DNA of 64,000 bases. It comes from a phage. The stretch is from sequence record PZ386967.1. One strand, given 5' to 3'. Below are positions 29,805-59,413 of the stretch, piece after piece. Each line of letters starts with the position of its first letter. Positions within the stretch are counted from its first letter, which is position 1. Made by a program: the position numbers and the translations under genes. Under the pieces are notes generated by a model. It saw only the letters and a program-made list of their open reading frames with translations, had not been told where the DNA came from and did no database searches.

Positions 29805-29981
29805 TGACCGACAACAAATTAAAACGTGTCGGACTTGATTGTCTTGACAATTCATTCCGCCCCAGTGATGTTCTGGTCGCCCAAATGGAAAACAACCGGG
29901 ATTTCATTGAAACTATGCTGGAGAACGCCGACGCGAACTCCAAACACTCCAAAGCCCAAAAAGGTCAAAACGATGATTGAA
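29805..29981 (+). CDS. Small protein (58 aa), coupled to the downstream vWA gene
   Basis: ATG 29805 to TGA 29979-29981, overlapping the vWA ATG (ATGATTGA); replaces the Pro/Thr-rich N-terminal extension in track ORF 29826. Confidence 0.35.
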
Positions 29982-32174
29982 TCATTAACATTTAAGAATG
30001 CGGTTGCGACCGTTGCGCCGTCTAACCATGTAATCGTTGTGGATATCTCCGGTTCCATGTATCGTTCACTTCCAGAAGTCCGTAAGCATCTGAAGGAGAA
30101 CCTGCCTTCCCTGGTGAAACCCGAAGATACTGTGAGCATCCTTTACTTTTCATCTCGCGGTGATTTCGGAACGGTATTTGCCGGACGCCAGATCGGTGTC
30201 GCATCTGACCTGAGCGAGCTGAATAAGCTGATCGATCGCTTCCTGCAACCGTCCGGATGTACTGGCTTTGTTGAGCCGTTGAAACTGGCGATGGACACTG
30301 CTCGTAGCCTGAAGAAGCCTGGCTATGTCAACAACCTGGCGTTCATGACTGACGGGTATGACAACTGCTGGCGTACCAACGAAATCTTACTGGTTGCTGA
30401 GACCCTGCCATTTGCTTTCGATAACATTACTTTCATCGAATACGGCTGGCACTGTAACCGCGAACTGCTGGCGCAGATGGCCGAACGCTCCGGTGCGACC
30501 CACGTGTTTGCCGAAGGTCAGACCGAATACCAGACCGAACTAGAAAACGTGCTGAAGTCATCAGTGCCGAAGGTGAAAGTTGATGTCCCAGTCATCTACA
30601 CCCATGCCATCTACGTCGAAAACGGTGTGGCAACAGTACTGGCGGTGCAGGACGATGACTCTCACCCGGTCGGCTATGTGAGCATCCCTGAGAGCGTCAC
30701 CAAGCTGTGGGTTGTAAACCCTAACATGATCGACCAGCTTGATGCGCTGGCGGACATCCAGGCGGCATACGTGCTGGCGTTCTACGGCGTACACATCATG
30801 GACGCAGACCTGGTATGGGCTGCGCTGAAGAAGACGGGCGACGTTCGCTTCATCAAACAGTACAGCAACTGCTTTACCAAGCAGGACTACTCCAACATCA
30901 AGAACGATCTGGTACAGGCGATTGTTGACGACCAGCTGCGCGGCGTTGACGGTATTGACTATGACCTGGTTCCGGCTGAAGATGCGACGACCGTCGTTGA
31001 CGTGCTGACGTATCTGGCTGAAGCTGGCGTGTCTGTTGCCACCAAACATCCTATGTTCTCCTACAAGAGCATTGGTCGCGGTACTGTGCAGAAAGCGGAC
31101 GATACCGAAGACAAACTGGCAGAACAGATCGCGAATGCTCAGTCCAAAGAAGAGCGTAAAGCCCTGGCTCTCAAGCTGGCTGAGCACGAAGAATGGACGC
31201 CGTCGTTTGAACCTGCCAACGATCTGGGCGTTATCTCAATCAGCGATCTGGTCTACAACTCTGAGCGCCCGAACATCAGTGTGCGCACTATTCAGCATGG
31301 TACTGTGACTGTCCCTGAGTTCGCACAGAAGAAGTTTGGTCTGCCTGAAGAACTGGATACTTTCCAGTGGCGCAACTACACCATCGTCAAAGATGGTATC
31401 ATCAACGTGAAGACCCTGCCGTTCAAGGCTGATATCGAAGTTGTACAGAAGCTGATCGAAATGGGCGTCCACGTGTTTGGTGGACCGGAAGTGTTTGTCC
31501 TGAACCTGGAAAGCGTACCGCTGGTCAACCGCGCCATGGTCAAGAACATCAGTGCTGCTCAGTTCTTTGCGGATAATGTCCGTTTGGAAGCCCTGAAAGG
31601 CAAGCAGAAGGTGCTGAAGTTCTATCGAGACGCCCTGGTTGGTAAAGGTAACGCCAAAGGCCTGGCAGTACAGTACGGCGCTGAGGCGGCCGAGTTCCTG
31701 TCCTCCTACGGCATCCGCGATTACGGCTTCTCACCGAAGACTGAGACCAAAGAGTCTACCGACTTCTACATGAGCCGGGAGCTGAACGTGAAGATCGCTG
31801 GCGCTTCATCTCTACCGTCTATCGCAGCGGTACAGAAGAAGATTGCCGAGAACAAGAAACTCAATGCTGGTGACTTGTTCATCGCCAATGCTCTGAAAGA
31901 GTACGAAGCATTCGTGAAGTCTCCTATGATCACTGCCGTGCCTGAAGCCTTACAGAAACAGCTGATCGAAAACTGGATCGACGCTGCTGCCAAGGCGGCC
32001 ATCACCGAAGTCCGTGCCCTGAACAAGACACTGTCTAAAGTGGTGTATGGTATCGTTGCTGGCCACGGCTGGTTCACCGACCTCGACCTGGAAGAGTCCA
32101 CCATGGAAGTTGAAGTGGATGGCGTGAAGTACAAGGTCACTGCCGAACTGACAGAGAAAGAAATCAAAATCTAA
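29973..32174 (+). CDS. von Willebrand factor A (vWA) domain protein, 733 aa
   Basis: MIDAS motif DISGSM near N-terminus followed by a vWA-like region (LAFMTDG); long C-terminal extension of unknown function. Confidence 0.6.
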   Translation: MIESLTFKNAVATVAPSNHVIVVDISGSMYRSLPEVRKHLKENLPSLVKPEDTVSILYFSSRGDFGTVFAGRQIGVASDLSELNKLIDRFLQPSGCTGFVEPLKLAMDTARSLKKPGYVNNLAFMTDGYDNCWRTNEILLVAETLPFAFDNITFIEYGWHCNRELLAQMAERSGATHVFAEGQTEYQTELENVLKSSVPKVKVDVPVIYTHAIYVENGVATVLAVQDDDSHPVGYVSIPESVTKLWVVNPNMIDQLDALADIQAAYVLAFYGVHIMDADLVWAALKKTGDVRFIKQYSNCFTKQDYSNIKNDLVQAIVDDQLRGVDGIDYDLVPAEDATTVVDVLTYLAEAGVSVATKHPMFSYKSIGRGTVQKADDTEDKLAEQIANAQSKEERKALALKLAEHEEWTPSFEPANDLGVISISDLVYNSERPNISVRTIQHGTVTVPEFAQKKFGLPEELDTFQWRNYTIVKDGIINVKTLPFKADIEVVQKLIEMGVHVFGGPEVFVLNLESVPLVNRAMVKNISAAQFFADNVRLEALKGKQKVLKFYRDALVGKGNAKGLAVQYGAEAAEFLSSYGIRDYGFSPKTETKESTDFYMSRELNVKIAGASSLPSIAAVQKKIAENKKLNAGDLFIANALKEYEAFVKSPMITAVPEALQKQLIENWIDAAAKAAITEVRALNKTLSKVVYGIVAGHGWFTDLDLEESTMEVEVDGVKYKVTAELTEKEIKI

Positions 32175-32216: not shown

Positions 32217-32540
32217 ATGAGCAGTAAACCAACATATGTTGAAGTCATGCGTCATCTGGCTCAGTACGCCACTGACAATCTGAACTTGGATCTGTGGCGT
32301 GACGATGACAAGCGCAAATTGCTGGACGACGTGGCATCTCAGAACGAGGACGCCCTAGACAAGCTGGCTGGCCTCCGCACCAAGAAAGACCTCGGCGGTG
32401 ATGAACTGGACGCTATCGAAATTGTAATGGACCTCGAAGAAGAGTTTCAGGTCGAAATCGACGATGGTTGGCTGGGCAGTAAAGGTGATGACCCGACCAT
32501 GGGTGAACTCGCTGAACTCGTGGTTGCCCTGCGCAAATAA
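32217..32540 (+). CDS. Acyl-carrier-protein-like acidic protein with the phosphopantetheine Ser replaced by Glu
   Basis: DLGGDELDAIEIVMDLEEEFQVEIDD aligns with E. coli ACP [26 protein letters not shown]; the attachment Ser is Glu here. Confidence 0.55.
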   Translation: MSSKPTYVEVMRHLAQYATDNLNLDLWRDDDKRKLLDDVASQNEDALDKLAGLRTKKDLGGDELDAIEIVMDLEEEFQVEIDDGWLGSKGDDPTMGELAELVVALRK

Positions 32541-32885: not shown

Positions 32886-32902
32886 GCATAACTTTTATTA
32901 AA

Positions 32903-32968
32903 TCCCCAACAAACGTTGGGGATTTTTAACTTTTAGGGGTTTACTTCCTTTAAGGAATGTCCTATTAT
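32903..32968 (+). promoter_or_regulatory. Terminator plus T4-type early promoter cassette (copy B)
   Basis: Near-identical to copy A (1-bp indel); -35 TTTACT 32940-32945, -10 TATTAT 32963-32968. Confidence 0.55.
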
Positions 32969-33318: not shown

Positions 33319-33825
33319 ATGACCGATCAACAAATTCAAGATTTATTTTACCTCGTCCATGATAAGTCCCACATCATGCGCCCCGGTACTGTTTCCCCTG
33401 CCGTCCGTGATCTGGTGCAAGAATTGCGCGAACCACAGACGACCACACTTTATCGCGGGTTGCCTAAAGAGGACGTTGCGCGTTTAGAGATGATGTTTGA
33501 ACGAGGCGACATGTTCCAGACATGGGATTCTTGCCTTAGCTTCAGTGAACTGAAGCATGTGGCCAAAAAATTTTCTAAATCGTACGGAACCCAAGCTGTT
33601 GCCCGCATTTGTTACAAACATCGAAACAGACTCCCGGAGGGGCTTAATGTCTATGGTTCTCTAGAAAAATTTGTGAACAAAGGCGATGAATCAGAAATGG
33701 ATATGCTGGACTTGGCGTCCATGGAGAAAGAATGGATATTCTGCCAGCCTCGCGTCATACCAGTTTCAAGAAAAATGGCAACAGACGGCACGATGGTTTT
33801 TACCGTATCACTTGTTACCCTATAA
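33319..33825 (+). CDS. Hypothetical protein (168 aa)
   Basis: ATG in conserved GGAACTATACCATG context; flanked by identical 31-bp hairpin-leader repeats. Confidence 0.5.
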   Translation: MTDQQIQDLFYLVHDKSHIMRPGTVSPAVRDLVQELREPQTTTLYRGLPKEDVARLEMMFERGDMFQTWDSCLSFSELKHVAKKFSKSYGTQAVARICYKHRNRLPEGLNVYGSLEKFVNKGDESEMDMLDLASMEKEWIFCQPRVIPVSRKMATDGTMVFTVSLVTL

Positions 33826-34699: not shown

Positions 34700-34731
34700 C
34701 TAAGGGATAACCCTATATCCCGAGGTGTGTC

Positions 34732-35181
34732 ATGTTCCTTACATCCTTTATTGACTGGTTGAACATCATTAACGGCCTGAGGATCCCTGTTGGGAACCTC
34801 GGGCTTTCTCGTTCTTCTATGCCGCAAATCGATGCCGACAAACAAGAAGATTTTCACAAATATCTTGAAGACAACGGCGTGTCCATAGATGCTGTGCAAG
34901 TGCCCATCAAAATGCTTCGTCTCACCCAGAACGAAATCAACAAGATGAAGGTCTGGAAGATCATGAAGCAGATCAGAAATAAGAAACCTATGGGTCGAGT
35001 TTGGGTGTCTTCTGACAATTACGTTGTTGACGGTTCTCACCGATTTGTCGCTGCGTTGAACATGGACGGCAAACAGCGCATGAAGGTCTACAAAGTTGAT
35101 TTGCCAGCGATGGAATTTGTTAAACTCGCTAAACAGTTTCAGGGTGTGCGATACAGAACGGTCAGCGATACCCGTTTCTGA
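34732..35181 (+). CDS. ParB-like nuclease-domain protein
   Basis: YVVDGSHRFVAA resembles the DGxHR motif of ParB/Srx-fold domains. Confidence 0.4.
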   Translation: MFLTSFIDWLNIINGLRIPVGNLGLSRSSMPQIDADKQEDFHKYLEDNGVSIDAVQVPIKMLRLTQNEINKMKVWKIMKQIRNKKPMGRVWVSSDNYVVDGSHRFVAALNMDGKQRMKVYKVDLPAMEFVKLAKQFQGVRYRTVSDTRF

Positions 35182-35260
35182 ATACGATAGTTTATTGAAA
35201 CCCTTTACTCATCATGGTGAGCCGCCTATCATTTCATCCAATGAAATAAGGAGAATCACC

Positions 35261-35947
35261 ATGAAACGTTTAATCCTCGGGGTCGTGCTGTCTGGTCTGG
35301 CATTACCCGCCGCTGCTAAGCTGAACCCCACAGGTGATAAACTGTGGTCCGACCTTTCCTATTGTGCTGGGTTCTCCCAGGCGGTTGCCATCGACAAGTC
35401 TGGTTCCATAGAGAACTTCGCTGAACTCTGGAACACAGGCAACGTCTCCACTGCTGTCGTCAATGCCGGAATTGAGTTCAACCGTTACAAACAGGGAGCC
35501 TATAACCTCAAGGGCTACCTCAATGACGACGAATTTAACCGTGGAGGCATGGAGGCTGGCGATTTGATCATGACTGGGCGTATGGGCACCCAAGGCCGAA
35601 TGACCGTAAGACAGTGCCGTTCGCTCCCTTCTCCGGCATTACAGAAGGGTGTGCAGGTTGGTCGCCGCCACCTGAACCTCATCAACGATGGCAACCAGTG
35701 CGTCAAAGTATTCGAATACAGCGCTACGCAGACCTCTGATCGCGTCCTGAAGAAGGAATGGCGCACCCGCGCTCTTGGTCTCAGAGCCTGGCTGGTTGAG
35801 AACGATTATTACTTTGAAGACAGGGTTCAGAACGGTCTGAAAGACCTGGCCACGAATCTGAGCGTGAACCTTGATGATCCTCGCATGTCGCGCGAACTCC
35901 AGCAGACTCGTGTTGACTGCGACAATATGATGAAGGAGAACGAGTGA
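35261..35947 (+). CDS. Secreted/periplasmic protein (228 aa)
   Basis: MKRLILGVVLSGLALPAAA|K signal peptide; RBS AGGAGA. Confidence 0.5.
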   Translation: MKRLILGVVLSGLALPAAAKLNPTGDKLWSDLSYCAGFSQAVAIDKSGSIENFAELWNTGNVSTAVVNAGIEFNRYKQGAYNLKGYLNDDEFNRGGMEAGDLIMTGRMGTQGRMTVRQCRSLPSPALQKGVQVGRRHLNLINDGNQCVKVFEYSATQTSDRVLKKEWRTRALGLRAWLVENDYYFEDRVQNGLKDLATNLSVNLDDPRMSRELQQTRVDCDNMMKENE

Positions 35948-36273
35948 TGAAATGTAAAATCTTGCTCTTGTTGGTACTGATAGCCGGATGTGTAAACGCC
36001 GCGCCACCGTCCAAACTGAACACATGTGTGGCATGGATGGAGACGTATCAGCAGTTCCACCCAGATGACAAAGACACATCTATCCTCCTGTCTGACTTTG
36101 AGGGAGAGCTGAAGCGCCTTGATCTGTTCAGTGTTGATCAGATAGAGAATGCGCTGGATCTTCCCATGATGCTGACTGCGGCTGATAACAGTCCACAAAC
36201 GAAGAAAGACCTGATGTATTGTCGGGGGATTGCCCAGGACTTTGTCGGATTTCAAAATAAAGTTTCGGGTTAA
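35944..36273 (+). CDS. Lipoprotein (109 aa)
   Basis: Signal peptide with lipobox LIAGC; start overlaps the upstream stop. Confidence 0.5.
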   Translation: MMKCKILLLLVLIAGCVNAAPPSKLNTCVAWMETYQQFHPDDKDTSILLSDFEGELKRLDLFSVDQIENALDLPMMLTAADNSPQTKKDLMYCRGIAQDFVGFQNKVSG

Positions 36274-38923: not shown

Positions 38924-40642
38924 GTGACAGCATTCAACCAATATACCAAGGCGCTTGACGGCGTCGGACCAGTCAGCATAGACCGCATCAAGTCTCTTGC
39001 CACTGAGTTCTTCCCGTATGACACCGCCAACCCCGGCCAGATGGAATGCATCGTTGAAGCCATTGATGCCCTTGTGAATAAGAAATTCAAACACGTGATC
39101 ATCGAGGCTCCGACTGGTGTAGGTAAATCCCTCATCGGCACTACCATCCATAATGTGCTTCGCCATTTGGTTCTTGAGCACAACCCGTATGGTCAGTTCC
39201 GCACGTCTATCACGACGCCGACCAAAGGTTTACAGGATCAGTATGCAGCAGAGAAAGCCGTGGCGATAGACATCCTGAAGGGCAAGAAGAACTACCGTTG
39301 CCACATCAGTCCCGACCTATACTACAACGCCATTCAGTGCCGTATGGCATGCCGTGATGGCCACTGTAGTAAGAATCGTTGCCCATATGTTCAGGCGCGT
39401 CGACAGTGGACCGACGTCTCCTCCCTGCGCTGCACCAACGCCGCCATGATGGTGGAGATGTGTACGACGATTTGTATGAAGCCGGAAAACCGTGCCGATA
39501 TGCTGATCCTTGACGAGTGTCATAAGATGCCCTCTACGCTCCTAGAGCATACTATCATGGAATACAACATAAAGGCTGTGGAAGGGTTGCTTACGATCCC
39601 CGAGGGAGTGCCTATCGTGGAGACCATCAAGGATATCATCATCCGCACAGAGAACTATGAATTGGGCAAGCTGTATTCCCTGTCTGGTGAGATGCATGCG
39701 ATATTTGATGAACTACACGGCAAGGTTGAAGCCCTGTTGGAAACTCTTGAAGAACTGGTAGAGGATGAGCGCCTGACTGAAGCCCAGGTGATGAAGCTGT
39801 CTGATATTATTGATAATCTTCACAACCTCAGTGACTACTGCGGTATCATGGGGCAGACCAACGCCAGCACTTTCATCGTACAGGAGAAGGACAAGGGTAT
39901 GATTCAGTTCAAGCCTGTCATCGCCTCTGATGTATCCCAGTTCGGTCTGTTCCGCAAGGGTGACTACCACGTTCACATGTCGGCGACCATCTGCGGGATT
40001 GACTCGTACGCCCGGTCACTGGGTATCCGCGAGGGTGAGTACCACAAGATACAGATCGGCAACCCTATCCCGATTGAGAACCGGAAAGTCAACTACATGC
40101 CCATCATGAAGATGACAGCGAACATGGGTGACTACGAGATGAAGAAGCTGGCTGAATACGTGGATGAAATTATCGCGTTCCACCCTGGGCAGTCTGGCAT
40201 CATTCACACAGTCAGTTATGACCGCGCCCTGGCTCTACAAAAGTTCAGTAAGTACCGGAATATGATTCACGTTCCTCGTACTCGTAAGGCTCTGATGGAC
40301 ATCATGGAAAACGCGTTCAGGACGAAGACGCCTTGTGTCATCGCCAGTCCGGCCATGGAAGAGGGGTATGACTTCAAAGGCGATTATAGTCGATTTCAGA
40401 TCTTGATCAAGGTGCCATACGATTACCTTGGTGATCCTCTGGTGGCCCACGTCAACAGTGTGGACCCATCGGCGTACTTCAGGATGGCGGTACTGCGTAT
40501 CGTTCAGATGTGTGGGCGTTCGGTCAGGGGTGTGAATGACTGGGCTGCGACGTACATCCTTGATTCTTCTTTTGAATCACTGATGATGCGCAACCCAGAG
40601 TTCTTCCCCGCTTGGTTCACTGATGCCGTGTTTGAGGTTTAG
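38924..40642 (+). CDS. DinG/Rad3(XPD)-family SF2 helicase with Fe-S cluster cysteines
   Basis: Q-motif PGQ, Walker A APTGVGKS, four Cys between motifs (CHISPDLYYNAIQCRMACRDGHCSKNRC), DEAH box LDECH. Confidence 0.75.
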   Translation: MTAFNQYTKALDGVGPVSIDRIKSLATEFFPYDTANPGQMECIVEAIDALVNKKFKHVIIEAPTGVGKSLIGTTIHNVLRHLVLEHNPYGQFRTSITTPTKGLQDQYAAEKAVAIDILKGKKNYRCHISPDLYYNAIQCRMACRDGHCSKNRCPYVQARRQWTDVSSLRCTNAAMMVEMCTTICMKPENRADMLILDECHKMPSTLLEHTIMEYNIKAVEGLLTIPEGVPIVETIKDIIIRTENYELGKLYSLSGEMHAIFDELHGKVEALLETLEELVEDERLTEAQVMKLSDIIDNLHNLSDYCGIMGQTNASTFIVQEKDKGMIQFKPVIASDVSQFGLFRKGDYHVHMSATICGIDSYARSLGIREGEYHKIQIGNPIPIENRKVNYMPIMKMTANMGDYEMKKLAEYVDEIIAFHPGQSGIIHTVSYDRALALQKFSKYRNMIHVPRTRKALMDIMENAFRTKTPCVIASPAMEEGYDFKGDYSRFQILIKVPYDYLGDPLVAHVNSVDPSAYFRMAVLRIVQMCGRSVRGVNDWAATYILDSSFESLMMRNPEFFPAWFTDAVFEV

Positions 40643-57130: not shown

Positions 57131-59413
57131 ATGATTAACGTTATAAAACGTGACGGATCTTCTGTCCCATTTGATATTGAGAAACTACACGCAGTCGTAG
57201 ACCGCGCATGTGATGGCCTGTCTGGTGTGTCAATGTCAGAGGTGATCGCTGCATCGAAGATTCAGTTCACCGACAACATGAGAACAGATCGCATTCAGGA
57301 TATCCTCATCCAGGCTGCGGCTTCACTGATCTCTGTAGAGAAACCCAACTACCAGTATGTGGCCGCTCGCCTGAAGTCATATGATCTGCGCAAGGCTGTC
57401 TATGGCCAGTACAAGCCGCCTCACCTGCTGGACATCTTCGTCAAGAACATCAAACAGCGCGTGTATGATCGTGAGTTCCTTGATCTCTACACGACCGAAG
57501 AGTTCAACGAGCTGAACGATGTTATTAACCACAAACGTGACAAGAACTTCACGTGGGCGGCCATGGGCCAGCTGACAGAGAAGTATCTGCTGCGCGACCG
57601 TTCCAAGAAAGACAGCAAGATCTTCTATGAAACTCCACAGGTCATGTACATGGGCATCGCCATGGCGTTGTTCTCCAACTGGGACAAAGCCAGCCGCCTG
57701 GAGATGGTGAAAAAGTTCTATGAATATGCCAGCACAGGCAAGTTCAGTCTTCCCACCCCGATTATGGCAGGTGTTCGTACTCCTACCCGTCAGTTCAGTT
57801 CCTGTGTGTTAATCAAGACGGATGACACCCTGAACTCTATCAACGCAACAGCCAAGACCATCGTTGACTATGTGTCCAAACGTGCGGGTATCGGCTTCGA
57901 TGTCGGGGCAATCCGTGGGATTGGTAGTCCTATTCGCGGCGGAGAGATGGTTCACACAGGCCTGATCCCGTTCATCAAGTATCTCACTGGGGCACTCAAA
58001 TCGTGCTCTCAGGGCGGCATTCGTGGTGGTGCAGCAACAGCGTACATCCCTCTGTGGCATTACCAGTTCGATGACGTCGTTGTTCTGAAGAACAACCGTG
58101 GTACTGAAGAAAACCGCGAACGCCGTATCGACTATGGCATTCAGATCAACCGCGTGATGTTTGAGCGCCTGGTTGCCAAGCAGCCTCTGTATCTGTTCGA
58201 CCCGAAAGACAACCGCGAAATGTATGAAGCATACTTCGCTGACGTTGACAAGTTCCGTACTCTGTATGAGAACATGATCAAGGCCGCTGATGCTGGTTTG
58301 GTTCGTGCTAAAAAGTTGCAGGCAGAAGAGGTGTTCCAGATGCTGTTAGACCAGCGTTCAGACACAGGCCGCATCTACATCGCATTTGTCGATCACATGA
58401 ATGAATACAGTCCATTCAACCTAGACACGATTTATTCTTCAAATCTTTGTTTAGAAATCGCCCTGCCGACCCGTGAGTTTGAGCAGTACAACGATGAAAA
58501 CGGGCGCGTGGCTCTGTGCACCCTGGCTTCCTTCAACCTGACAGCGTTCGAAGATCCTACGGAAATGGAAGACGTGGCGTTCGTGTTGGTGTCTGCGCTG
58601 GACATGCTGTTGGAATATCAGGACTATCCAGCGATTCAGGCTCGCAAGGCTGTTGAAGACTATCGTCCTCTGGGTGTTGGTATCGTGAACGTGGCTCACT
58701 TCCTGGCCAAGAACTTCACGGGCTATGGCTCACCAGCTGGTCTTGAAATGCTGGATGCGTGGATGGCACACCTGCACTTCTATCTGGTCAAGGCGTCCAA
58801 CCGTCTGGCCATGAAGTTCGGGGCGTGTAAACGCAGAACCATCCACAATAATGGGCAGGTCACCGCCGACCTTCAGCCGCTTCCACTTGATATCCTACCA
58901 AATGGCAAGAAGCCAGAAGGGATGGCATACGGGCTGGATTGGGATGAGTTGAAGGATAATCTGAAGACCTATGGTATCCGCAACGCCACTCTGCTGGCAG
59001 TAGCCCCTACCGAAAGCTCCTCACAGGTCCTCAACGCAACGAACGGCATTGAGCCACCGAAGGGCTTGGTGAGCATCAAGGGTAGCAAGGACGGCACTTA
59101 TAAGCAGGTCGTCCCGGACGTTGAGACCCTTGGACCGATGTATGACCTCAAGTGGGACCTGGACTGTATTGAGTACCTGAAGACCGCTGCTGTCATCCAG
59201 CGCTGGGTTGACCAGTCCATCAGTACCAACACGTGGTATGACCCAGAGAAGTACCCTGACAGCAAGATCCCTCGCGCCAAGATGATGCAGGATATCCTGT
59301 CGTTCTATATGTGGGGTGGCAAGACTCTGTATTACAACACAAACAAGGACGCCAAGGAAGACGAAGAGCTGAAGCAGGCTGAGGAAACTCAGTGCGATAG
59401 CTGTGTTGTATAA
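57131..59413 (+). CDS. nrdA: Ribonucleotide reductase large subunit (NrdA, class Ia)
   Basis: N-terminal ATP-cone (VIKRDGSSVPFDIEKL); active-site region SSCVLI; 760 aa like E. coli NrdA; C-terminal Cys pair. Confidence 0.9.
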   Translation: MINVIKRDGSSVPFDIEKLHAVVDRACDGLSGVSMSEVIAASKIQFTDNMRTDRIQDILIQAAASLISVEKPNYQYVAARLKSYDLRKAVYGQYKPPHLLDIFVKNIKQRVYDREFLDLYTTEEFNELNDVINHKRDKNFTWAAMGQLTEKYLLRDRSKKDSKIFYETPQVMYMGIAMALFSNWDKASRLEMVKKFYEYASTGKFSLPTPIMAGVRTPTRQFSSCVLIKTDDTLNSINATAKTIVDYVSKRAGIGFDVGAIRGIGSPIRGGEMVHTGLIPFIKYLTGALKSCSQGGIRGGAATAYIPLWHYQFDDVVVLKNNRGTEENRERRIDYGIQINRVMFERLVAKQPLYLFDPKDNREMYEAYFADVDKFRTLYENMIKAADAGLVRAKKLQAEEVFQMLLDQRSDTGRIYIAFVDHMNEYSPFNLDTIYSSNLCLEIALPTREFEQYNDENGRVALCTLASFNLTAFEDPTEMEDVAFVLVSALDMLLEYQDYPAIQARKAVEDYRPLGVGIVNVAHFLAKNFTGYGSPAGLEMLDAWMAHLHFYLVKASNRLAMKFGACKRRTIHNNGQVTADLQPLPLDILPNGKKPEGMAYGLDWDELKDNLKTYGIRNATLLAVAPTESSSQVLNATNGIEPPKGLVSIKGSKDGTYKQVVPDVETLGPMYDLKWDLDCIEYLKTAAVIQRWVDQSISTNTWYDPEKYPDSKIPRAKMMQDILSFYMWGGKTLYYNTNKDAKEDEELKQAEETQCDSCVV

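What the first reader, a model, noticed from the sequence alone, without database searches (positions are those of the whole stretch)
34732..35181. ParB-like nuclease-domain protein in a T4-like early region
The DGxHR-type motif is the hallmark of ParB/sulfiredoxin-fold domains, which act as CTP-dependent DNA clamps or nucleases and occur in some phage DNA-modification and anti-defence contexts. It has no T4 equivalent.
Basis: partly seen in the sequence, partly recalled or inferred. Interest (0 to 1): 0.4.

Follow-up and report, generated by a model that had tools for sequence, protein, structure and literature searches.

The report
Virion-packaged ParB/sulfiredoxin-fold phage protein
This is a real 149-residue gene of a ViI-like (Ackermannviridae, not T4) phage whose product has the ParB/sulfiredoxin nucleotide-binding fold, has been detected in purified virions of two related phages, and belongs to a very large uncharacterised family of phage proteins that also occurs as a module in giant virion-associated "polyvalent" proteins; the fold call is right, but "nuclease" and "CTP clamp" are unproven.

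The parts
34732..35181 (+). CDS, 149 aa, 17.3 kDa, pI 9.9: stand-alone ParB/sulfiredoxin-fold protein
34722..34727 (+). Shine-Dalgarno-like GAGGTG, 4 nt before the ATG
   Evidence: Read directly from the sequence.
34810..34827 (+). R27-S-S-M30-P31-Q32: family-specific N-terminal 'RxxMPQ' element. It is absent from the core-only second copies in two-copy proteins.
   Evidence: R 148/148, M 146/148, P 148/149, Q 147/149 across distant family members. Second copies often start at profile position ~38.
34924..34950 (+). T65-Q66-N-E68 ... K73 ('TQxE...K'): the Box-I-equivalent region. Q66 aligns with SerK catalytic position 30, and K73 with sulfiredoxin ATP-binding K61.
   Evidence: Q 161/162, E 122/162, K 139/162. 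Alignments to Srx and SerK.
35008..35043 (+). S93-x-D95-x-Y-x-x-D100-G101-S102-H103-R104: strand plus GxxR phosphate-binding P-motif (family consensus SxDxYxLDGHHRW)
   Evidence: S 150/164, D95 157/164, D100 163/164, G 164/164, H103 164/164, R 148/164. Aligns with Srx G98-C99-H100-R101 and SerK DGHHRW. GxxR is the NTP-binding P-motif of the fold (PMC12704722).
32940..32968 (+). Sigma70-like promoter element TTTACT-N17-TATTAT at the head of the transcription unit that ends with the target gene
   Evidence: One of 6 same-strand copies in the window against 0.02 expected. The LIMEstone1 record annotates a 'putative early promoter' at the equivalent place.
35204..35232 (+). Next copy of the same promoter-like element, 23 nt after the target's stop codon and upstream of the i-spanin gene

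Best explanation
The gene encodes a small, basic, single-domain protein of the ParB/sulfiredoxin superfamily. It is incorporated into the virion and, by inference, released into the cell with the DNA, where it acts on its own early in infection. It is the solo form of a module that other phages carry inside giant virion-associated 'polyvalent' proteins, next to kinases, nucleotidyltransferases, RelA/SpoT, ADP-ribosyltransferases and Acb1-like domains. I think the most likely mechanism is binding of a nucleoside triphosphate through the GxxR P-motif (G101-S102-H103-R104) together with K73. Q66, E68, D95 and D100, with the family-specific N-terminal R27/Q32 element, would then complete a catalytic pocket that hydrolyses the nucleotide or transfers its phosphate to a substrate that is still unknown. 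On this view it works like the enzyme members of the fold (sulfiredoxin, SerK/SbnI) and not like a ParB DNA clamp. Shown here or in cited papers: the fold, the motif conservation, the family's size and domain fusions, and virion detection of orthologues. Inferred: ejection, NTP binding, catalysis, and an anti-host or anti-defence role.
Against: No biochemical data exist for any member of this family. Sequence-profile links to characterised ParB/Srx proteins are weak (E 1e-3 to 1e-2), and Pfam ParBc does not hit. The position of the Srx catalytic Cys, which is the first His of the family's DGHHR, is Ser in this clade. SerK's catalytic Glu position is Gln. The chemistry of those enzymes therefore cannot simply be transferred. 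The Sajous1 virion list also contains likely carry-over proteins (RegB 31 spectra, SSB 5 spectra), so 11 spectra is not proof of packaging. The transcription unit has a sigma70-like promoter and no T4-type late promoter, which is unusual for a virion component. The N-terminal 30 residues are modelled with only moderate confidence (pLDDT 63-73). Ejection has not been shown for any orthologue.
Confidence: 0.5

Rival explanations
1. It is an NTP-regulated, sequence-non-specific DNase or nickase. It would be delivered with the phage DNA and would nick or degrade host or competitor DNA, or assist early phage replication. Iyer et al. proposed this for ParB domains of polyvalent proteins.
For: Several ParB/Srx-fold proteins (Osa, ParB-methylase, GmrS-type domains) are reported to have nuclease and/or NTPase activity, as reviewed in PMC5512222. 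The best structural match is deposited as a 'ParB domain protein nuclease' (5k5d). Conserved acidic residues D95, D100 and E68 could bind metal. The protein is basic, pI 9.9.
Confidence: 0.2
2. It is a non-catalytic internal head protein. Either it is a basic DNA-associated packaging or ejection protein, or it is a decoy that binds and blocks host ParB-fold defence proteins (GmrSD, BrxU, SspE). The second option would be analogous to T4 internal proteins IPI, Ip2 and Ip3, which inhibit GmrSD enzymes.
For: Virion detection. Small and basic, like T4 internal proteins. The gene lies between denV and lysis genes in Kuttervirus, as ipII and ipIII do in T4. Injected T4-like internal proteins block specific GmrSD enzymes (PMC12373910). 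In the 5mYOX-ParB system, mutation of the NTP-binding residues had no effect on function (PMC13229309).
Against: About a dozen polar residues clustered in the known active-site motifs are near-invariant across thousands of highly diverged family members. That pattern is typical of an enzyme or ligand pocket and not of a scaffold or a fast-evolving inhibitor. T4 internal proteins are unrelated in sequence and vary greatly between phages, whereas this protein is 84-99% conserved across genera.
Confidence: 0.12
3. It is an accessory factor of thymidine hypermodification. It could be an activator like the ParB proteins required by some phage thymine dioxygenases, or a SerK-like small-molecule kinase feeding the serine-derived modification of ViI-like phages.
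For: ParB-fold proteins activate phage 5mYOX dioxygenases (PMC13229309). Homologs occur in ViI-like phages and PhiW-14; from my own knowledge, both groups hypermodify thymidine. The best PDB sequence hit is a free serine kinase.
Against: No modification gene is adjacent; the neighbours are an ART-like protein, small ORFs, a membrane protein and spanins. The 5mYOX-ParBs belong to PF02195 and need a C-terminal dimerisation domain, and this protein has neither. The family is spread through phages not known to hypermodify DNA and through polyvalent proteins. SerK's C-terminal domain is absent and its catalytic Glu position is Gln. Packaging into virions does not fit a replication-phase biosynthetic role.
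Confidence: 0.06
4. It is a CTP-dependent DNA sliding clamp, partition protein or transcriptional switch of the ParB/Noc/KorB type.
For: Structural matches include CTP/CDP-bound ParB, Noc and KorB N-domains. The GxxR motif is present.
Against: The protein is a single 149-aa domain with no HTH DNA-binding domain and no C-terminal dimerisation domain. The P-motif reads DGSHR and not GERRxR. Pfam ParBc does not hit. No ParA-like annotation appears in the annotated flanks examined in four Ackermannviridae relatives; ParA was not searched for explicitly. The phage is lytic.
Confidence: 0.03

Closest known systems
DdrB-like ParB domain of phage P1 DdrB and polyvalent proteins (Iyer et al. 2017, PMC5512222; Pfam PF18763)
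   Same: Same superfamily (ParB/Srx). Same biological niche: solo or embedded in large polyvalent proteins of phages and prophages, and linked to virion-packaged proteins. It shares an acidic residue at the end of the strand that precedes a GxxR motif (SSDNYVVDGSHR against GEDNAVESGNGR).
   Different: It is a different family. PF18763 hits P1 DdrB at E 2e-39 but only 1 of 33 members of this family, at E 0.07. Profile against single sequence and profile against profile give probabilities of 0.2% and 0.4%. DdrB-ParB has ELQPRDR and ESGNGR motifs; this family has RxxMPQ, TQxE and DGHHRW.
Free serine kinases SerK and SbnI, and sulfiredoxin (enzyme branch of the ParB/Srx fold)
   Different: The Srx catalytic Cys99 position is Ser102. 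The SerK catalytic Glu30 position is Gln66. The SerK/SbnI C-terminal domain is missing. This family has an extra ~50-residue N-terminal extension carrying RxxMPQ. The substrates are surely different.
Pfam ParBc_2 (PF08857, 'putative ParB-like nuclease'; structure Atu1540, PDB 2hwj)
   Different: The window protein itself does not hit PF08857 at E<=10, and most member hits are below the gathering score. From my own knowledge, ParBc_2 is functionally uncharacterised.
Canonical ParB, Noc and KorB CTPase clamps (Pfam PF02195 with HTH and C-terminal domain)
   Same: The N-terminal nucleotide-binding fold and the GxxR P-motif.
   Different: No PF02195 hit, no HTH, no dimerisation domain, no GERR box, and no ParA annotated in the flanks examined.
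T4 internal proteins IPI, IPII, IPIII and Alt (ejected head proteins)
   Same: Small basic virion-associated proteins. The gene position is loosely parallel (between denV and lysis genes). The proposed role at the moment of DNA entry is similar (PMC12373910).
   Different: No sequence or fold relationship. Ejection has not been shown here. This protein is highly conserved, whereas T4 internal proteins are hypervariable.

Membership tests
ParB/sulfiredoxin superfamily (fold level) | The alpha/beta ParB N-domain / Srx fold | tested here: met
ParB/sulfiredoxin superfamily (fold level) | GxxR phosphate-binding P-motif (Box II) after the central strand | tested here: met
   G101-S102-H103-R104. G is 164/164 and R 148/164 in the family. 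It aligns to Srx GCHR and SerK GHHR. The motif definition comes from PMC12704722.
ParB/sulfiredoxin superfamily (fold level) | Binds a nucleoside tri- or diphosphate | not testable with these tools
   Needs DRaCALA, ITC or a co-crystal. The survey paper reports that specificity cannot be predicted from sequence or AlphaFold3.
   No hit at E<=10 for the window protein. PF02195 is not among the families matched at E<=0.1 by any of 33 diverse family members.
Canonical ParB/Noc/KorB CTP-dependent clamp | Central HTH DNA-binding domain and C-terminal dimerisation domain | tested here: not met
   The model shows a 149-aa single domain. No Pfam HTH or ParB C-terminal domain.
Canonical ParB/Noc/KorB CTP-dependent clamp | GERRxR Box II, and a ParA partner with parS | tested here: not met
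   The motif is DGSHRF. No ParA-like gene is annotated in the flanks examined in four relatives. ParA and parS were not searched for explicitly.
DdrB-like ParB (Iyer 2017; PF18763) | Sequence-profile membership (ELQPRDR and ESGNGR motifs) | tested here: not met
   PF18763: no hit for the window protein and 1 of 33 members at E 0.07. hhalign against P1 DdrB gives prob 0.2%, and against a 24-sequence DdrB-ParB alignment prob 0.4%, E 0.15.
DdrB-like ParB (Iyer 2017; PF18763) | Occurs solo or in polyvalent proteins of phages and prophages, linked to virion or ejected proteins | tested here: met
   for the fusions. for virion detection. This is a shared context, not proof of membership.
Pfam ParBc_2 (PF08857) | HMM score at or above the gathering threshold (23.6 bits) | tested here: inconclusive
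   The window protein has no hit. 14 of 33 family members hit at E<=0.1, best 1.7e-5. Polyvalent members score 20.8-22.6 bits, just below the cut-off.
Sulfiredoxin | Catalytic Cys in the FGGCHR motif | tested here: not met
   Ser102 occupies the Cys99 position; most of the family has His there.
SerK/SbnI free serine kinase | Catalytic Glu (SerK E30) and the C-terminal domain of the ~240-aa enzyme | tested here: not met
   Invariant Gln66 aligns at position 30; the E30Q mutant chain scores better than the wild-type chain. The protein ends about 45 residues after the P-motif.
Polyvalent-protein effector module (Iyer 2017 concept) | The same domain is found inside large multidomain phage proteins that carry LPD, MuF/portal or lysozyme modules and other effector domains | tested here: met
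   Claudette gp02 has SLT, this domain, LPD3 and LPD38. 34 of the top 150 representatives are >500 aa, and 13 have two copies. Fusion census.

The most novel reading that the evidence does not exclude
The protein represents a very large, unnamed clade of the ParB/Srx fold (RxxMPQ, TQxE, DGHHRW; >=4,880 50%-identity clusters; no Pfam or NCBIfam model; not detected by the PF02195 model on which the 2025 ParB-CTPase-fold survey was based). Its members would be virion-delivered NTP-dependent enzymes, for example kinases or NTPases that modify or destroy a host molecule or an immune signalling nucleotide at the moment of DNA entry. That would make it a new class of ejected anti-defence effector, used solo by Ackermannviridae and as a module of polyvalent proteins elsewhere.
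Probability: 0.25. Interest if true: 0.6.

Novelty: new member of a known kind. Interest (0 to 1): 0.32.

Why it matters
The fold call itself adds little. UniProt already labels homologs "ParB/Sulfiredoxin domain-containing", and one paper lists the 99%-identical Sajous1 gp192 as a ParB N-terminal domain protein found in virions. What is worth knowing is what the fold call leaves out. This is one of the commonest uncharacterised modules in phage polyvalent proteins. It is distinct from the only described polyvalent ParB family (DdrB-like). Pfam ParBc does not detect it. In Ackermannviridae it exists as a small, soluble-looking, highly conserved stand-alone protein that is apparently packaged. 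That makes it a convenient experimental entry point, at 17 kDa and a single domain, for learning what this module does in many phages. Ackermannviridae are widely used in Salmonella, E. coli and Dickeya biocontrol, so an ejected host-acting enzyme would be relevant to host range.

Tried and rejected
1. Direct sequence routes to ParB failed. This covers Pfam, NCBIfam, and PDB phmmer and hmmsearch with the close-homolog profile. Their top hits (GAD, von Willebrand A1, Protein A repeats) are spurious.

2. Membership in the DdrB-like ParB family was the obvious literature match. I rejected it after three tests.

3. A role as a 5mYOX-type ParB activator was rejected on architecture and context.

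4. I looked for conserved partner genes around solo homologs in PhiW-14 and Aeromonas CC2 and found none.

5. The literature search for Ackermannviridae transcriptomes gave nothing usable, so expression timing stays open.

6. The phiPD10.3/phiPD23.1 and phiD3 proteome papers give gene-level data only in figures, so they could not be used.

7. The AFDB50 fold library was unavailable, and BFVD was used instead.

8. The second 'DGSHR' at 57946 is an out-of-frame chance match inside a 760-aa ORF.

9. I looked by eye for a T4 gp21-type (L/I)xE processing site and saw no convincing one. I did not pursue this.

Full report
**1. Observation**

The window has an ATG-initiated ORF at 34732..35181 (+) that encodes 149 residues. 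A GAGGTG ribosome-binding sequence lies 4 nt upstream. The five-residue pattern alone carries no weight. DG.HR occurs three times in the six-frame translation against 0.77 expected, and one of the other hits is out of frame inside a 760-aa ORF.

The gene is nonetheless real. tblastn finds it in 432 phage records, 403 of them at >=80% coverage. The motif residues are invariant in 20 close homologs. Orthologous proteins have been detected by mass spectrometry (section 4). The product is 17.3 kDa with pI 9.9.

**2. Which genome**

The region is 94-97% identical over 4 kb to Ackermannviridae phages. These include Escherichia phage vB_EcoM-ZQ1, Enterobacter phage fGh-Ecl02 and Salmonella phage vB_CECAV_050, the last classified as Agtrevirus. 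This group used to be called "T4-related" (PMC3296691) but is not T4-like in current taxonomy.

Only 29 Escherichia-phage records contain a homolog. That equals the number sharing this Ackermannviridae region at DNA level, so I infer that T4 and its close relatives lack it. T4-like Aeromonas phages do have distant homologs.

**3. Is it ParB-fold?**

Sequence profiles largely fail:
- Pfam ParBc (PF02195) gives no hit even at E<=10.
- NCBIfam gives nothing.
- PDB sequence searches with the protein, or with a profile of close homologs, give only noise.
- The one strong hit is phrog_2859 (unknown function, E 7e-45), which matches positions 316-467 of a 740-position profile. ParB-like PHROGs appear only at E 1.5e-3 to 2e-2.

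The ParB/Srx superfamily assignment is therefore supported. Membership of the Pfam ParBc family is not.

**4. Virion association**

The LIMEstone1 orthologue (84% identical, syntenic, 149 aa) is annotated "confirmed structural protein". Table 2 of PMC3296691 lists a 17.31-kDa unknown structural protein with 35.57% coverage and 5 unique peptides. The proteins the authors regarded as unexpected had one peptide and <5% coverage. The paper's ORF numbering is offset by one from the GenBank record. The authors also state that all 12 unknown structural proteins have structural counterparts in ViI.

[quoted passage not shown] Sajous1 gp192 is 147/149 identical to the window protein. That dataset also contains probable carry-over proteins such as RegB and SSB, so packaging is likely but not proven. 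Ejection has never been tested.

**5. The family**

An exhaustive profile search found 4,880 50%-identity cluster representatives at E<=1e-3 and 2,309 at E<=1e-10. Among the best 150:
- 67 are solo proteins of <=200 aa.
- 34 are >500 aa, the longest 2,359 aa.
- 13 carry two copies.

Near-invariant residues across 165 domain instances are:
- R27, M30, P31 and Q32 (the "RxxMPQ" element).
- Q66 and E68 ("TQxE") and K73.
- S93 and D95.
- D100, G101, H/S102, H103 and R104.

The majority form of the last motif is "DGHHRW"; the Ackermannviridae clade has Ser at position 102. Second copies often lack the RxxMPQ N-terminal element.

Fusion partners among the 68 longer members scanned are mostly nucleotide-acting or protein-modifying effector domains, plus delivery modules: Zeta_toxin and AAA_33 P-loop kinases, cytidylyltransferase-like and PolyA_pol nucleotidyltransferases, RelA_SpoT, ADP-ribosyltransferases, Acb1, GNATs, Mu portal and PT-HINT. 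In Ralstonia phage Claudette the domain (aa 1084-1198, E 4.5e-26) lies inside the 3,164-aa gp02, which also has SLT, LPD3 and LPD38 domains and sits beside virion structural genes. This is the "polyvalent protein" setting of Iyer et al. 2017 (PMC5512222).

**6. Which known family?**

Iyer et al. defined the "DdrB-like ParB" domain for exactly this niche, so I tested membership.
- Pfam ddrB-ParB (PF18763) hits P1 DdrB at E 2e-39. It hits only 1 of 33 members of this family, at E 0.07.
- hhalign of the family profile against P1 DdrB gives probability 0.2%.
- hhalign against a 24-sequence DdrB-ParB alignment gives 0.4%, E 0.15.
- The DdrB family motifs (ELQPRDR, ESGNGR) differ from those here.

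It is therefore not a member of that family, although it shares the niche.

The nearest Pfam model is ParBc_2 (PF08857): 14 of 33 members hit, best E 1.7e-5, but the window protein itself does not. Among solved structures, the best sequence-level relatives are enzymes. The free serine kinase SerK scores E 0.008, and its "IVDGHHRWAGL" matches the family consensus. The family's invariant Q66 falls on SerK catalytic position 30. Human sulfiredoxin, whose sequence I first verified against PDB 1yzs, aligns at E 1.3e-3. That alignment places K73, H103 and R104 on Srx K61, H100 and R101, and S102 on the catalytic Cys99. That K61, H100 and R101 are the ATP-phosphate ligands of Srx is from my own knowledge of the Srx structures.

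**7. Mechanism**

The 2025 survey of the ParB-CTPase fold showed that the fold is a general CTP/ATP/GTP-binding module that depends on the GxxR arginine. It also reported that specificity cannot be predicted from sequence or AlphaFold3 (PMC12704722). That survey describes the fold by PF02195, which does not detect this family, so I infer it probably missed it.

The protein is a single domain without an HTH or a dimerisation domain. It has DGSHR where ParB has GERR, and no ParA is annotated in the flanks examined. The ParB-clamp mechanism is therefore very unlikely. The dense set of invariant polar residues at the known active-site positions points to a ligand-binding catalytic pocket.

I commit to the following reading: a packaged, probably ejected, NTP-binding enzyme (phosphotransferase or NTPase) that acts early in infection on an unknown host or nucleotide substrate (confidence 0.5). 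The rivals are:
- an NTP-regulated DNase or nickase (0.2);
- a non-catalytic internal protein or decoy (0.12);
- a DNA-hypermodification accessory (0.06);
- a CTP clamp (0.03).

The chemistry of Srx or SerK cannot be transferred directly, because their catalytic Cys and Glu positions are Ser and Gln here.

**8. Context and expression**

The order of genes on the + strand is:
- vWA virion protein (29826-32174);
- acyl carrier protein (32217-32540);
- a terminator-like hairpin (32900-32925);
- a promoter-like element (32940-32968);
- a 79-aa ORF;
- a solo ART-like protein (33319-33825, phrog_832, E 5.8e-15);
- two small ORFs;
- a small membrane protein;
- the target;
- a second promoter-like element (35204-35232);
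- i-spanin and o-spanin.

The element TTTACT-N16-18-TATNAT occurs six times in the window, always on the + strand, against 0.02 expected. LIMEstone1 annotates the equivalent site as a putative early promoter. No T4-type late promoter (TATAAATA, up to 1 mismatch) lies within 2.7 kb upstream. The "early region" label therefore cannot be confirmed or excluded. It sits awkwardly with virion incorporation, and I leave this unresolved.

**9. Novelty and verdict**

The fold annotation already exists in UniProt and in one paper. No member of this clade has been characterised, the clade has no Pfam or NCBIfam model, and it is distinct from the DdrB-like ParB family. I file it as a new member of a known kind (ParB/Srx superfamily, polyvalent-protein effector modules) and score interest at 0.32. 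The most novel reading still open is a large class of virion-delivered NTP-dependent effectors, with probability about 0.25 and interest about 0.6 if true.

Noticed in passing
window 4560, 32569, 32583, 32940, 35204, 54535 (all + strand): The promoter-like element TTTACT-N16-18-TATNAT occurs 6 times, always on the + strand, against 0.02 expected by chance. It is probably a phage promoter class recognised by host sigma70. Two copies bracket the transcription unit that holds the target gene.
   Followed up: partly
window 33319-33825 (+): A 168-aa solo ADP-ribosyltransferase-like protein (phrog_832 'RNA polymerase ADP-ribosylase', E 5.8e-15) matches only positions 1270-1425 of a 1480-position profile and has no Pfam hit. 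It looks like a second solo version of a polyvalent-protein module, about 900 bp upstream of the target in the same unit. In Kuttervirus and LIMEstone1 the same slot holds denV instead.
   Followed up: partly
window 34732-35181 compared with L013 (T4 62500-67500) and L002, L012: T4 places its ejected internal-protein genes ipII and ipIII between denV and the lysozyme gene e. Kuttervirus places this virion ParB/Srx gene between denV and the spanins. Aeromonas phage CC2 places its homolog between hoc and tk/e. This is a loose positional parallel and may be coincidence.
   Followed up: partly
window 32217-32540 (+) and 29826-32174 (+): A phage acyl carrier protein (PP-binding, E 2.7e-5) lies directly downstream of the 782-aa vWA-type protein, whose LIMEstone1 counterpart is a confirmed virion protein. 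This is an unusual pairing and I did not examine it further.
   Followed up: no
window 35261-35947 and 35944-36273 (+): An i-spanin / o-spanin (Rz-like, phrog_3843) pair with overlapping stop and start codons lies immediately downstream of the target. The i-spanin candidate has no Pfam hit.
   Followed up: no
window 57946-57960 (+) and 39040-39054 (+): Two further DG.HR matches occur in the six-frame translation. The one at 57946 is out of frame inside a 760-aa ORF (57131-59413) and is a chance hit. The one at 39040 (DGMHR) lies within the span of the 572-aa ORF 38924-40642, which relatives annotate as a helicase; I did not examine it.
   Followed up: partly
proteins P0051-P0150 (family members): 13 of the top 150 family representatives carry two copies of the domain. 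The second copy usually lacks the N-terminal RxxMPQ element (it starts at profile position ~38), which suggests a catalytic plus degenerate or regulatory pair.
   Followed up: partly
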